A DNA stretch of 31,024 nt from Escherichia coli (GTDB taxonomy: Bacteria; Pseudomonadota; Gammaproteobacteria; Enterobacterales; Enterobacteriaceae). The notes beneath the pieces are model-generated. The model had not been told where the DNA came from and made no database searches. It saw only the letters and a program-made list of their open reading frames with translations. Shown one piece after another: positions 11,958-16,192 of the stretch (position 1 is its first letter; every line of letters starts with the position of its first letter). The translations under genes were made by a program, and so were the position numbers. The DNA lies in NCBI RefSeq assembly GCF_003334305.1, contig NZ_QOWS01000035.1. One strand, written 5' to 3'.

Positions 11958-13853
11958 ATGTCTGCAACAAAACTGACCCGCCGCGAACAACGCGCCCGGG
12001 CCCAACATTTTATCGACACCCTGGAAGGCACCGCCTTTCCCAACTCAAAACGCATTTATATCACTGGCACACACCCCGGCGTGCGCGTGCCGATGCGTGA
12101 GATCCAGCTTAGCCCGACGCTAATTGGCGGTAGCAAAGAACAGCCGCAGTACGAAGAAAACGAAGCGATTCCGGTCTACGACACCTCCGGCCCGTATGGT
12201 GATCCGCAGATTGCCATTAACGTGCAGCAAGGGCTGGCAAAACTACGCCAGCCGTGGATCGATGCGCGCGGCGATACCGAAGAACTTACCGTGCGCAGTT
12301 CCGATTACACTAAAGCGCGGCTGGCAGATGATGGCCTCGACGAACTGCGTTTTAGCGGCGTACTAACACCAAAACGCGCCAAAGCAGGACGCCGTGTCAC
12401 CCAACTGCACTACGCCCGCCAGGGCATCATCACGCCGGAAATGGAATTCATCGCCATCCGCGAGAATATGGGCCGCGAGCGCATACGTAGCGAAGTTTTA
12501 CGCCACCAGCATCCGGGAATGAGCTTTGGCGCACGTCTGCCGGAAAATATCACTGCGGAATTTGTCCGTGATGAAGTTGCTGCCGGACGTGCGATTATCC
12601 CGGCCAACATTAATCATCCGGAATCGGAGCCGATGATTATTGGCCGTAACTTCCTGGTAAAAGTTAACGCCAATATCGGCAACTCGGCGGTCACCTCTTC
12701 CATCGAAGAAGAAGTGGAAAAGCTGGTATGGTCCACGCGCTGGGGAGCGGATACGGTGATGGATCTCTCCACCGGTCGCTATATTCACGAAACCCGCGAG
12801 TGGATTTTGCGTAACAGCCCGGTGCCGATCGGTACAGTGCCGATCTACCAGGCGCTGGAGAAGGTTAACGGGATCGCCGAAGATCTTACCTGGGAAGCGT
12901 TCCGCGACACGCTGCTGGAACAGGCCGAGCAAGGTGTGGATTACTTCACTATCCATGCGGGCGTACTGCTGCGCTATGTGCCGATGACCGCAAAACGCCT
13001 GACCGGTATCGTCTCTCGCGGCGGTTCGATTATGGCGAAATGGTGCCTCTCCCATCATCAGGAAAATTTCCTCTATCAACACTTCCGCGAAATTTGTGAA
13101 ATCTGTGCCGCTTATGACGTTTCGCTGTCGCTGGGCGACGGTCTGCGCCCCGGTTCTATTCAGGACGCCAACGATGAAGCGCAGTTTGCCGAGCTGCATA
13201 CGCTGGGCGAACTGACCAAAATTGCCTGGGAATATGACGTGCAGGTGATGATTGAAGGCCCAGGCCACGTGCCGATGCAGATGATCCGCCGCAATATGAC
13301 CGAGGAGTTAGAGCACTGCCACGAAGCGCCGTTTTACACTCTGGGGCCGCTAACTACCGATATTGCGCCGGGCTATGACCACTTCACGTCGGGGATTGGT
13401 GCGGCGATGATTGGCTGGTTTGGCTGCGCGATGCTCTGTTACGTAACGCCAAAAGAGCATCTGGGTCTGCCCAATAAAGAAGATGTTAAGCAGGGGCTTA
13501 TCACCTATAAGATTGCCGCCCACGCCGCTGACCTGGCGAAAGGGCATCCGGGCGCGCAAATTCGCGATAACGCCATGTCGAAAGCCCGCTTCGAATTTCG
13601 CTGGGAAGACCAGTTTAATCTGGCCCTCGACCCGTTTACCGCCCGCGCTTATCACGATGAAACCCTGCCGCAAGAGTCAGGTAAAGTCGCCCATTTTTGC
13701 TCCATGTGTGGGCCGAAATTCTGCTCGATGAAAATCAGCCAGGAAGTGCGTGATTACGCCGCCACGCAAACTATTGAAATGGGAATGGCGGATATGTCGG
13801 AGAACTTCCGTGCCAGAGGCGGAGAAATCTACCTGCGTAAGGAGGAAGCGTGA
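11958..13853 (+). CDS. thiC: phosphomethylpyrimidine synthase (radical SAM)
   Basis: 631-aa ORF with C-terminal CxxCxxxxC motif (CSMCGPKFC), recognised as ThiC. Confidence 0.96.
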
Positions 13854-14488
13854 TGTATCAGCCTGATTTTCCTCCTGTACCTTTTCGTTTAGGACTGTAC
13901 CCAGTGGTGGACAGCGTACAGTGGATCGAACGTCTGTTGGATGCAGGCGTACGTACTCTCCAGCTACGCATCAAAGATCGGCGCGATGAAGAGGTGGAAG
14001 CCGATGTCGTGGCGGCAATTGCGCTGGGCCGCCGCTATAACGCGCGATTGTTTATCAACGATTACTGGCGGCTCGCGATCAAGCATCAGGCGTATGGCGT
14101 CCATTTGGGGCAGGAAGATTTGCAAGCCACCGATCTCAATGCCATCCGCGCGGCAGGCCTGCGGCTGGGTGTTTCGACACATGACGATATGGAAATCGAC
14201 GTCGCGCTGGCAGCACGCCCCTCTTATATCGCGCTGGGACATGTGTTCCCGACGCAAACCAAACAGATGCCTTCTGCACCGCAGGGGCTGGAACAGCTGG
14301 CACGGCATGTTGAGCGACTGGCGGATTATCCCACCGTGGCGATTGGCGGTATCAGTCTGGCACGCGCGCCTGCGGTGATAGCAACGGGTGTCGGCAGTAT
14401 CGCCGTCGTCAGCGCCATTACTCAAGCCGCAGACTGGCGTTTGGCAACGGCACAGTTGCTGGAAATTGCAGGAGTTGGCGATGAATGA
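13853..14488 (+). CDS. thiE: thiamine-phosphate synthase
   Basis: ATG at 13853 overlaps the thiC stop (TGATG), giving a 211-aa product starting [19 protein letters not shown]. The track start at 13850 is a GTG one codon upstream. Confidence 0.93.
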
Positions 14489-15236
14489 CCGTGATTTTAT
14501 GCGTTATAGCCGCCAAATCCTGCTCGACGATATCGCTCTTGACGGGCAGCAAAAACTGCTCGACAGCCAGGTGCTGATTATCGGTCTTGGCGGGCTGGGT
14601 ACACCTGCTGCGCTATACCTGGCGGGCGCTGGCGTCGGGACGCTGGTACTGGCAGATGACGACGATGTGCATTTAAGCAATCTGCAACGACAAATCCTCT
14701 TTACCACTGAAGATATCGATCGCCCGAAATCGCAGGTCAGCCAACAGCGACTGACACAGTTGAATCCCGACATTCAACTGACAGCATTACAACAACGGTT
14801 AACGGGTGAGGCGTTAAAAGATGCGGTTGCACGGGCCGATGTGGTGCTCGACTGTACCGACAATATGGCGACTCGCCAGGAGATTAATGCCGCCTGCGTG
14901 GTACTCAACACGCCGCTTATCACCGCCAGCGCGGTCGGATTTGGCGGTCAGTTGATGGTACTGACGCCGCCCTGGGAGCAGGGGTGTTACCGCTGCCTGT
15001 GGCCAGATAACCAGGAGCCAGAACGCAACTGCCGCACGGCGGGCGTGGTTGGCCCGGTGGTCGGGGTTATGGGCACTTTGCAGGCACTGGAAGCCATTAA
15101 GTTATTAAGCGGTATAGAGACACCTGCGGGAGAACTCCGACTGTTCGACGGTAAATCGAGCCAGTGGCGCAGCCTGGCGTTGCGCCGCGCCAGTGGTTGC
15201 CCGGTATGCGGAGGAAGCAATGCAGATCCTGTTTAA
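14481..15236 (+). CDS. thiF: ThiS adenylyltransferase (E1-like)
   Basis: ATG at 14481 overlaps the thiE stop (ATGAATGA). Product starts [12 protein letters not shown], has a GxGxxG nucleotide motif (IGLGGLG) and C-terminal CxxC motifs. The track start at 14388 is inside thiE and rejected. Confidence 0.92.
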
Positions 15237-15420
15237 CGATCAACCGATGCAGTGCGCCGCCGGGCAAACTGTTCACGAACTACTGGAGCAACTCGACCAA
15301 CGACAAGCGGGCGCGGCTCTGGCGATTAATCAGCAAATCGTCCCGCGTGAGCAGTGGGCGCAACATATCGTGCAGGATGGCGACCAGATCCTGCTTTTTC
15401 AGGTTATTGCAGGGGGTTGA
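15220..15420 (+). CDS. thiS: sulfur carrier protein ThiS (ubiquitin-like, C-terminal GG)
   Basis: 66-aa product MQILFNDQ...LLFQVIAGG ending in Gly-Gly. ATG at 15220 overlaps the 3' end of thiF by 17 nt. Confidence 0.9.
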
Positions 15421-15421
15421 A

Positions 15422-16192
15422 ATGTTACGTATTGCGGACAAAACGTTTGATTCACATCTGTTTACCGGCACAGGGAAATTCGCTTCTTCACAACTGATGG
15501 TGGAGGCGATCCGCGCTTCCGGCAGCCAGCTGGTGACACTGGCGATGAAACGTGTCGACTTGCGCCAGCACAACGACGCTATCCTCGAACCGCTTATCGC
15601 GGCGGGTGTGACCCTGCTGCCAAATACATCCGGGGCGAAAACAGCGGAAGAAGCCATTTTCGCCGCCCATCTGGCTCGTGAAGCGTTAGGCACAAACTGG
15701 TTAAAATTAGAGATTCACCCTGACGCCCGCTGGCTGTTGCCCGATCCCATCGAAACCCTGAAAGCCGCCGAAACGCTGGTACAACAGGGATTTGTCGTGC
15801 TGCCTTACTGCGGGGCCGATCCGGTATTGTGTAAACGTCTGGAAGAAGTCGGCTGTGCAGCGGTGATGCCGCTCGGCGCGCCGATTGGCTCGAATCAGGG
15901 ACTGGAAACCCGCGCCATGCTGGAGATTATTATCCAGCAGGCCACAGTGCCGGTGGTTGTCGATGCTGGCATCGGCGTTCCCAGCCATGCCGCGCAGGCG
16001 CTGGAAATGGGGGCCGACGCGGTGTTAGTGAATACGGCAATTGCCGTCGCGGACGATCCCGTCAACATGGCGAAGGCATTTCGTCTGGCGGTAGAAGCAG
16101 GCCTGCTGGCACGTCAGTCCGGACCGGGCAGCCGCAGTCATTTTGCTCATGCCACCAGCCCGCTGACTGGATTTCTGGAGGCATCGGCATGA
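15422..16192 (+). CDS. thiG: thiazole synthase
   Basis: 256-aa product starting [20 protein letters not shown], with ATG 1 nt after the thiS stop. The 342-aa track ORF from 15164 is an out-of-context upstream extension. Confidence 0.93.

What the first reader, a model, noticed from the sequence alone, without database searches (positions are those of the whole stretch)
13850..16192. Every gene junction in thiCEFSGH is an overlap or 1-nt gap
thiC/thiE share TGATG (1-nt overlap), thiE/thiF overlap by 8 nt (ATGAATGA), thiF/thiS by 17 nt, thiS/thiG are 1 nt apart and thiG/thiH overlap by 4 nt (ATGA). This implies obligate translational coupling of the pathway enzymes with the tiny sulfur carrier ThiS. 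It also explains why the ORF track over-extends thiE, thiF, thiS and thiG upstream.
Basis: seen in the sequence. Interest (0 to 1): 0.3.

Follow-up and report, generated by a model that had tools for sequence, protein, structure and literature searches.

The report
Tightly packed E. coli thiCEFSGH operon
The six thiamine-synthesis genes of E. coli really do abut or overlap at every junction, but this is a catalogued, ordinary feature of compact bacterial operons, and the sequence alone does not show that translating each gene strictly depends on translating the one before it.

Summary
The window is E. coli chromosome carrying the TPP-riboswitch-controlled thiCEFSGH operon. Stop-to-start spacings are -1 (TGATG), -8 (ATGAATGA), -17, +1 and -4 (ATGA). 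The five starts match RefSeq annotation and are homologous in 28 of 28 Enterobacteriaceae loci.

The same five numbers are already tabulated for K-12 in a 2023 paper. -4, -1 and -8 are the three commonest spacings in E. coli.

Comparative analysis of 79 loci adds three points:
- All five junctions stay at or below +2 nt in 24 of 24 complete Enterobacteriaceae loci, although the overlap lengths change.
- Vibrionaceae and Aeromonas open thiF/thiS, thiS/thiG or thiG/thiH to +35 to +146 nt, so the pathway does not need overlap there.
- Every downstream gene has its own strong Shine-Dalgarno inside the upstream gene. Two are built from functional glycine codons (ThiS C-terminal Gly-Gly; ThiF CxxCGG) with strong synonymous-codon bias.

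"Obligate" coupling is an over-reading:
- One of five tested E. coli ATGA pairs is uncoupled.
- Measured coupling is 1.7- to 7-fold.
- Long overlaps such as -17 couple poorly.
- Only the thiE ribosome-binding site is predicted to be sequestered.

Partial, facilitated coupling is the best reading. Low interest; already known.

The parts
11777..11877 (+). TPP (THI-box) riboswitch aptamer in the thiC leader. It is the operon's single known control point.
   Evidence: Rfam RF00059, 74.8 bits against a gathering score of 54.3. RefSeq annotates a TPP riboswitch at the same place. It controls thiC translation initiation and Rho-dependent termination (PMC5234074; PMC12360218).
11958..13853 (+). thiC, phosphomethylpyrimidine synthase, 631 aa
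   Evidence: NCBIfam NF006763, 1072.8 bits. RefSeq CDS.
13839..13855 (+). thiC/thiE junction: SD AAGGAGGAA (13839-13847, thiC codons Lys-Glu-Glu), then TGATG (13851-13855), a 1-nt overlap.
   Evidence: Anti-SD duplex -12.1 kcal/mol. The GAGGA core and TGATG/TAATG are conserved in Enterobacteriaceae, while the GTG at 13850 is not.
13853..14488 (+). thiE, thiamine phosphate synthase, 211 aa
   Evidence: NCBIfam NF002904, 423.8 bits; the model aligns from residue 1. RefSeq CDS.
13867..13876 (+). TTTTCCTCCT in thiE codons 5-8. It is complementary to the thiE SD and is predicted to sequester it.
   Evidence: Duplex -14.9 kcal/mol; SD unpaired probability 0.04 in E. coli. Weaker in other genera, -4.6 to -12.1 kcal/mol. 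Prediction only.
14470..14488 (+). thiE/thiF junction: SD AGGAG (14470-14474), then ATGAATGA (14481-14488), an 8-nt overlap.
   Evidence: -8 in 23 and -14 in 5 of 28 Enterobacteriaceae loci.
14481..15236 (+). thiF, ThiS adenylyltransferase, 251 aa
   Evidence: NCBIfam TIGR02356, 287.7 bits. PDB 1ZUD/1ZFN match over 1-251.
15207..15236 (+). thiF/thiS junction: ThiF Cys-Gly-Gly codons TGC GGA GGA supply the SD GGAGGA (15210-15215). thiS ATG is at 15220. The thiF TAA (15234-15236) lies inside thiS codons 5-6 (TTT AAC). The overlap is 17 nt.
   Evidence: The first Gly of CxxCGG is GGA in 36 of 38 loci, where GGA is 11% and GGA+GGG 29% of all Gly codons.
15220..15420 (+). thiS, sulfur-carrier protein, 66 aa, ending in Gly-Gly
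   Evidence: NCBIfam TIGR01683, 71.6 bits. PDB 1F0Z/1ZUD match over 1-66.
15412..15424 (+). thiS/thiG junction: ThiS Gly65-Gly66 codons GGG GGT form the SD (GGGGG, 15412-16), followed by TGA (15418-20), one base (15421) and ATG (15422-24).
   Evidence: The penultimate Gly codon is GGA/GGG in 77 of 79 loci against a 29% baseline. The thiG SD duplex is -8 kcal/mol or stronger in 99% of loci.
15422..16192 (+). thiG, thiazole synthase, 256 aa
   Evidence: RefSeq product name. PDB ThiG chains 2HTM and 1TYG, E 1e-71 and 6.5e-68; 1TYG aligns from residue 1. No NCBIfam family at E <= 1e-10.
16177..16192 (+). thiG/thiH junction: SD GGAGG (16177-16181, codons Leu-Glu-Ala), then ATGA (16189-16192), a 4-nt overlap.
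   Evidence: -4 in 21 and -1 in 5 of 26 Enterobacteriaceae loci.
16189..17322 (+). thiH, 2-iminoacetate synthase (radical SAM), 377 aa
   Evidence: NCBIfam TIGR02351, 524.8 bits. RefSeq CDS.

Best explanation
This is the well-known E. coli thiCEFSGH operon. It is one polycistronic unit behind a TPP riboswitch and has no intergenic spacers.

**Shown.** Each downstream gene's Shine-Dalgarno sequence is written into the last 5-15 codon positions of the upstream gene. Each start codon lies within -17..+1 nt of the upstream stop.

**Inferred mechanism.** Ribosomes finishing the upstream gene help initiation at the next gene. They do this by melting local structure (clearest for thiE) and, at the -1/-4/+1 junctions, possibly by reinitiating. 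Each gene can also recruit free 30S subunits through its own strong SD. Coupling would therefore be partial and differ from junction to junction, not obligate.

**Inferred consequences.**
- Riboswitch control of thiC translation is passed downstream.
- No untranslated gaps are left for Rho to load on.
- Partner proteins (ThiF-ThiS, ThiS-ThiG, ThiG-ThiH) are made side by side.

The exact overlap lengths are evolutionary accidents. For example, ThiF's unconserved tail simply runs on to the first stop inside thiS. What is conserved in Enterobacteriaceae is proximity plus the embedded SD.
For: **Geometry and identity:**

**One control point, no internal promoter:** the only RNA element is the TPP riboswitch, and no promoter-like site lies on the + strand inside the operon.

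**Embedded SDs are real and selected:**
- Duplex energies are -6.9 to -12.1 kcal/mol in E. coli.
- Junction medians are -7.6 to -9.5 across 77-79 loci, against a background median of -2.4 with only 2% at -8 or stronger.
- The ThiS penultimate Gly is GGR in 77 of 79 loci, and the ThiF CxxC-Gly is GGA in 36 of 38, against a 29% GGR baseline.

**Compactness is conserved, overlap length is not.** 24 of 24 complete Enterobacteriaceae loci have all junctions at or below +2, with variants -1/-4, -8/-14, -17/-20, +1/+2 and -4/-1. Other Enterobacterales use -4 at thiF/thiS in 11 of 17 loci.

**Published behaviour of such junctions:**
- 4 of 5 E. coli ATGA pairs are coupled, and removing the SD reduced reinitiation in 4 of 5.
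- Coupling is best at -4..+3 and weaker with longer overlap.
- Coupling transfers translational regulation from rplK to rplA.
- RNA melting, not reinitiation, is favoured in E. coli, with coupling factors of 1.7-7.

**Structure prediction:** the thiE SD is sequestered (0.04 unpaired), while the thiS and thiH SDs are open.

**Partner proteins:** the ThiF-ThiS complex is PDB 1ZUD. A ThiG-ThiH complex has been reported.
Against: - No direct measurement of coupling exists for any thi junction in the literature I could search.
- The ribosome-profiling and proteomics supplements I could open held no usable thi values.
- The RNA accessibility figures are thermodynamic predictions on naked RNA.
- For loci outside Enterobacteriaceae my start-codon choice used SD strength as one criterion. 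This inflates the SD statistics there.
- The loci are phylogenetically related, so the binomial p-values overstate independence.
- Loosening in Vibrio and Aeromonas shows that overlap is dispensable in those lineages. It does not show this for E. coli.
Confidence: 0.62

Rival explanations
1. Obligate chain coupling. Ribosomes can start thiE, thiF, thiS, thiG and thiH only after translating the preceding gene. One initiation decision at thiC would then set the output of all six proteins.
For: - All junctions are at or below +1 nt.
- 14 of 14 native overlapping pairs were called strictly coupled in the authors' later summary (discussion), and 4 of 5 E. coli pairs in the original assays.
- The thiE SD is predicted to be fully sequestered in E. 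coli.
- Junction SD windows are slightly less accessible than random coding positions (medians 0.25-0.41 against 0.40).
- Compactness is invariant in Enterobacteriaceae.
Against: - bioBF, an ATGA pair, initiates de novo.
- Measured coupling is 1.7-7-fold, not absolute.
- -17 is a poor spacing for reinitiation.
- The thiS and thiH SDs are strong and predicted open.
- Related bacteria have +35..+146 nt gaps at three of the junctions.
- Nothing in the sequence distinguishes obligate from partial coupling.
Confidence: 0.12
2. There is no functional coupling. Each gene is initiated independently at its own SD. The overlaps are a neutral or streamlining by-product: ATGA and TGATG arise easily, and loss of a stop codon extends a gene into its neighbour. 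They persist mainly because the embedded SD fixes where the next start can lie.
For: - Overlap lengths turn over between clades (-1, -4, -8, -11, -14, -17, -20).
- ThiF's tail after CPVCGG is unconserved and is just the out-of-frame reading of thiS up to the first stop.
- The abundance of -4 spacing is attributed to ease of evolution.
- Every gene has a strong SD of its own.
- Junctions open up in Vibrionaceae and Aeromonas without loss of the operon.
- RRF depletion data favour de novo initiation in E. coli.
Against: - 24 of 24 Enterobacteriaceae loci keep all five junctions tight despite synonymous-site divergence.
- Most tested E. coli overlapping pairs are coupled to some degree.
- A ribosome terminating within a few nucleotides of an SD/start will unavoidably alter local structure and occupancy.
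- The predicted SD-sequestering hairpin at thiE.
Confidence: 0.24

Closest known systems
E. coli K-12 thiCEFSGH operon as annotated and tabulated (b3994-b3990, b4407; Huber et al. 2023, PMC10666635, supplementary file 3)
   Same: Same genes, order and spacings. The table lists thiC/thiE -1, thiE/thiF -8, thiF/thiS -17, thiS/thiG +1 and thiG/thiH -4. The window is 100% identical to several E. coli chromosomes.
   Different: Nothing of substance. That table tags all five pairs 'CMPLX not', although ThiF-ThiS is a solved complex (1ZUD) and a ThiG-ThiH complex has been reported.
Termination-reinitiation coupling at ATGA / TGATG overlaps (Huber et al. 2019 and 2023)
   Same: thiG/thiH (ATGA) and thiC/thiE (TGATG) have the two commonest motifs, each with an SD inside the upstream gene. 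thiS/thiG (+1) and thiE/thiF (-8) are inside the -8..+10 'predictive' range.
   Different: thiF/thiS (-17) is outside that range. None of the thi pairs was among those tested experimentally.
Structure-melting coupling and relay of regulation (rplK-rplA; atpHA; trpB-trpA)
   Same: A translationally regulated first gene is followed by tightly spaced genes. The thiE SD is predicted to be paired until a ribosome reads through the end of thiC.
   Different: Here the regulator is a riboswitch that also triggers Rho termination. Much of the downstream shut-off may therefore be transcriptional. The hairpin is a prediction and is not conserved outside Escherichia.

Membership tests
thiCEFSGH thiamine biosynthesis operon (Enterobacterales type) | Six genes in the order thiC-thiE-thiF-thiS-thiG-thiH on one strand | tested here: met
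   NCBIfam equivalog hits above cutoff for ThiC, ThiE, ThiF, ThiS and ThiH. ThiG by PDB homologues and RefSeq naming. The same order is found in 79 loci.
thiCEFSGH thiamine biosynthesis operon (Enterobacterales type) | TPP riboswitch in the thiC leader | tested here: met
   RF00059, 74.8 bits against a gathering score of 54.3, at 11777-11877.
Translationally coupled gene pair | Co-directional genes on one transcript | tested here: inconclusive
   No promoter-like site on the + strand inside the operon, and the terminator-like hits are no more frequent than in shuffled sequence. The literature treats it as one operon. Transcript ends were not measured here.
Translationally coupled gene pair | Stop-start spacing in the efficient range (about -8 to +10; best at -4 to +3) | tested here: met
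   Met for four junctions (-1, -8, +1, -4). thiF/thiS at -17 lies outside the range.
Translationally coupled gene pair | SD for the downstream gene inside the upstream coding sequence | tested here: met
   All five junctions: -6.9 to -12.1 kcal/mol. Enriched over background. Synonymous-codon bias.
Translationally coupled gene pair | Downstream ribosome-binding site closed by RNA structure when the upstream gene is not translated | tested here: inconclusive
   Predicted only for thiE (SD unpaired 0.04). thiF and thiG are intermediate (0.24 and 0.23). thiS and thiH are open (0.65 and 0.54). Opening energies fall at the 37th-80th percentile of the transcript.
Translationally coupled gene pair | Downstream translation per mRNA falls when upstream translation is stopped prematurely | not testable with these tools
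   This is the defining functional test. No published data for thi junctions were found.

The most novel reading that the evidence does not exclude
The functional C-terminal glycines of the sulfur-carrier system double as ribosome-binding sites. The invariant Gly-Gly end of ThiS, and the Gly-Gly after ThiF's CxxC motif, are held on rare GGA/GGG codons. GGAGG then serves as the SD of the partner gene (thiG and thiS respectively).

This dual coding would hard-wire each partner's start to within a few nucleotides of the carrier's end. It would explain why thiS/thiG is the most uniformly tight junction: +5 nt or less in 73 of 79 loci, with a published cross-phylum median of +4. Together with a riboswitch-gated thiC, it could make the operon a relay in which one ligand decision is passed on translationally through five junctions.
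Probability: 0.3. Interest if true: 0.3.

Novelty: already known. Interest (0 to 1): 0.1.

Why it matters
It matters little as a discovery. The operon, its gene boundaries and its exact spacings are in public annotation and in a published table, and short overlaps of this kind are among the commonest features of bacterial operons.

The check is useful in three practical ways:
- It confirms that the annotated internal ATGs, not the longer mechanical ORFs, are the real starts.
- It shows that overlap alone should not be read as obligate coupling.
- It offers a small, testable point about dual-use glycine codons that tie the ThiS and ThiF ends to the ribosome-binding sites of their partner genes.

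Tried and rejected
**Direct experimental data on thi translation.**
- Burkhardt 2017 supplements hold no thi genes.
- Mori 2021 supplements were cut when stored and yielded only one ThiS peptide row.
- The TetRP start-site supplements have no thi entries.
- Li 2014, Lalanne 2018 and Vander Horn 1993 are not held.
- Full-text searches linking thi genes with translational coupling or overlap found nothing specific. One search failed on syntax.

**First-pass start-codon heuristic.** It gave false thiC/thiE gaps of +470..+925 in Vibrio and Aeromonas. ThiE there carries a 190-318 aa N-terminal extension. This was corrected by following the open frame back to the thiC stop. The heuristic also mis-called thiF/thiS in two Yersinia loci (L036 and L047), which I excluded.

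**GTG 13850 as the thiE start (a GTGA, -4 overlap).** Rejected. The GTG is confined to Escherichia; other genera have GTA, CTG or ATA there. The SD spacing also favours ATG 13853.

**Unusually stable local structure at the junctions.** Rejected. MFE z-scores are -1.1 to +0.7.

**Genome-wide count of operons with five or more consecutive tight junctions.** Not done. The published pair list is too long for the look-up cap.

**Heavy protein-database, structure-prediction and metagenome tools.** Not used. The identity of every gene was already unambiguous.
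Full report
**What the locus is.** The stretch 11700-17500 is 100% identical to several complete E. coli chromosomes and is present in 5,421 of 5,426 E. coli genomes. RefSeq annotates nudC, rsd, a TPP riboswitch, thiC, thiE, thiF, thiS, thiG, thiH, yjaZ and rpoC. Rfam finds the TPP aptamer at 11777-11877 (74.8 bits, gathering score 54.3) and the sRNA sroH at 17570-17730. NCBIfam equivalog models confirm ThiC, ThiE, ThiF, ThiS and ThiH above their curated cutoffs. ThiG had no NCBIfam hit at the threshold I used. It matches solved ThiG structures at E = 1e-71 to 1e-61, and B. subtilis ThiG (1TYG) aligns from residue 1. ThiS and ThiF match PDB 1F0Z, 1ZUD and 1ZFN over their full lengths, and 1ZUD contains both proteins.

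**Checking the observation.** Reading the sequence and computing the boundaries gives spacings of -1, -8, -17, +1 and -4. The starts equal the RefSeq starts. The mechanical ORF list begins thiE, thiF, thiS and thiG 1, 31, 9 and 86 codons further upstream. This happens because the ORF tool takes the first ATG/GTG/TTG after an in-frame stop, and there is no intergenic spacer to provide one. Across 27-28 other Enterobacteriaceae loci those upstream starts are present and reachable in only 1-3. The annotated ATGs sit at the homologous position in all of them. The GTG at 13850 is specific to Escherichia; other genera have GTA, CTG or ATA there.

**Is it unusual?** Each spacing on its own is not. 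In E. coli, -4, -1 and -8 are the three commonest spacings, and 707 of 2,987 co-directional pairs (24%) lie between -8 and +6. [quoted passage not shown] The same pattern holds across bacteria and archaea. The five thi spacings are listed one by one for K-12 in the supplementary table of Huber et al. 2023. Cross-phylum medians for the same COG pairs are also tight: ThiC-ThiE -1, ThiE-ThiF -4, ThiS-ThiG +4, ThiG-ThiH +1.8. Five of five in one operon would occur in roughly 0.2-2% of six-gene runs if junctions were independent. That is my rough estimate from the published fractions. A few such operons per genome are therefore expected. I did not count them.

**Comparative evidence.** A scan of one genome per species with ThiG returned 80 loci. 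Of these, 79 carry thiCEFSGH in the same order. I mapped stops and starts by homology, start codon and SD. I then corrected thiE in Vibrio and Aeromonas, where it has a 190-318 aa N-terminal extension that begins at the thiC stop.

| Clade | Loci | All five junctions at or below +2 nt (complete loci) | Junction detail |
|---|---|---|---|
| Enterobacteriaceae | 28 | 24 of 24 | C/E -1 or -4; E/F -8 or -14; F/S -17 or -20; S/G +1 or +2; G/H -4 or -1 |
| Other Enterobacterales | 19 | 11 of 17 | F/S is -4 in 11 of 17; E/F opens to +22, +74 and +99 in Photorhabdus and Providencia |
| Vibrionaceae | 17 | 0 of 17 | C/E, E/F and S/G stay tight; F/S above +20 in 7 loci (+35 to +125); G/H +1 to +34 (15 of 17 at +7 or more) |
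| Aeromonas group | 15 | 5 of 15 | S/G is +85 in 4 loci; G/H is +50 to +146 in 7 loci |

(All figures.) Two conclusions follow. Compactness is maintained in the E. coli family, but the particular overlap lengths are not. The pathway also operates in relatives without overlap at three of the junctions.

**How the overlaps are built.** In every junction the downstream SD is encoded by the last codons of the upstream gene:

| Upstream gene codons | Sequence |
|---|---|
| ThiC Lys-Glu-Glu | AAGGAGGAA |
| ThiE Ala-Gly-Val | GCAGGAGTT |
| ThiF Cys-Gly-Gly | TGCGGAGGA |
| ThiS Ala-Gly-Gly | GCAGGGGGT |
| ThiG Leu-Glu-Ala | CTGGAGGCA |

Anti-SD duplex energies are -6.9 to -12.1 kcal/mol in E. coli. 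Medians are -7.6 to -9.5 across loci, against -2.4 at random internal positions. That comparison has a caveat: SD strength helped choose starts outside Enterobacteriaceae.

Two of these SDs sit on functionally fixed glycines. The penultimate Gly of ThiS is GGA or GGG in 77 of 79 loci. The first Gly after ThiF's CxxC is GGA in 36 of 38. GGA+GGG make up 29% of all Gly codons in these genes. The loci are related, so the p-values are inflated, but synonymous sites are saturated at these distances.

ThiF's residues after CPVCGG are unconserved. They are simply the out-of-frame reading of thiS until the first stop. In E. coli that stop is the TAA inside thiS codons TTT AAC. So the 17-nt overlap looks like a historical accident layered on a conserved SD-to-start arrangement.

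**Does this imply obligate coupling?** Published tests argue for caution.
- Of five native E. coli ATGA pairs, four were coupled and bioBF initiated de novo. The SD mattered in four of five.
- Coupling is most efficient at -4 to +3. It declines faster with increasing overlap than with increasing gap, and was absent at -25 nt in a controlled series. This makes -17 at thiF/thiS unfavourable for reinitiation.
- In reporter assays of classic pairs the coupling factor was 1.7 (trpB-trpA) to 7.0 (rplK-rplA). RRF depletion did not change it, which favours structure melting plus de novo initiation.

My folding predictions point the same way.
- Opening energies of the five internal ribosome-binding sites lie at the 37th-80th percentile of the transcript. 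Local MFE z-scores are unremarkable.
- Only the thiE SD is strongly paired in E. coli (unpaired probability 0.04). It pairs with TTTTCCTCCT at 13867-13876 (duplex -14.9 kcal/mol). That pairing weakens to between -4.6 and -12.1 in other genera.
- The thiS and thiH SDs are predicted mostly open (0.65 and 0.54).

No study measuring coupling in this operon turned up.

**Best explanation.** The operon is a spacer-free polycistron. Upstream ribosomes probably facilitate downstream initiation to different degrees: most plausibly at thiE by melting, and possibly at the -1/-4/+1 junctions by reinitiation. Each gene also has an autonomous SD.

This architecture would relay the riboswitch's translational control of thiC, as rplK-rplA relays L1 control. 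It would leave no untranslated gaps for Rho, which already acts at the thiC leader. It would also synthesise interacting partners next to one another: ThiF-ThiS in 1ZUD, and the reported ThiG-ThiH complex. Short spacings are 4.5-fold enriched for complex subunits in E. coli. All of these functional steps are inferred, not shown.

**Rivals.** The other is purely independent initiation with overlaps as a neutral by-product, at about 0.24.

**Novelty and verdict.** The finding is correct, ordinary and already catalogued. The one mildly new point is the dual use of functional Gly-Gly codons as the partner gene's SD. This could explain why thiS/thiG is almost always within a few nucleotides. Interest 0.1.

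Noticed in passing
window 15412-15417 and 15210-15215; loci L002-L081: The invariant C-terminal Gly-Gly of ThiS, and the Gly-Gly after ThiF's CxxC motif, are encoded with rare GGA/GGG codons (77 of 79 and 36 of 38 loci, against a 29% baseline). GGAGG then doubles as the Shine-Dalgarno of thiG and thiS respectively.
   Followed up: partly
window 13839-13876: In E. coli the thiE Shine-Dalgarno AAGGAGGAA can pair with TTTTCCTCCT in thiE codons 5-8 (duplex -14.9 kcal/mol; SD unpaired probability 0.04). The pairing is weaker or absent in other Enterobacteriaceae genera.
   Followed up: partly
loci L042, L046, L048, L050, L052-L061, L063-L072, L075-L081 (thiE region): In Vibrionaceae, Aeromonas and Zobellella the thiE reading frame carries a 190-318 aa N-terminal extension that starts at the thiC stop (-11 to +5 nt). 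This is consistent with the long ThiE form of NCBIfam NF008933. The function of the extension was not examined.
   Followed up: no
window 17570-17730 (+): The sRNA sroH (Rfam RF00372, 201 bits) lies between thiH and yjaZ, just downstream of the operon.
   Followed up: no
PMC10666635 supplementary file 3 (K-12 pairs b3990-b3994, b4407): The published table tags thiF/thiS, thiS/thiG and thiG/thiH as 'CMPLX not'. However, ThiF-ThiS is a solved complex (PDB 1ZUD) and a ThiG-ThiH complex has been reported. The paper's enrichment of complex subunits among tight pairs is therefore, if anything, conservative.
   Followed up: partly
window 15422-16189: ThiG returned no NCBIfam family at E <= 1e-10, although it is a clear thiazole synthase by PDB homology and RefSeq naming.
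   Followed up: no
loci L030-L041, L049, L051 versus L001-L029 (thiF 3' end): The thiF/thiS overlap is in a different reading-frame phase in Enterobacteriaceae (-17/-20) than in Serratia, Hafnia, Pectobacterium, Proteus and Photorhabdus (-4). This implies a frameshifting indel at the end of thiF that lengthened ThiF's tail.
   Followed up: partly
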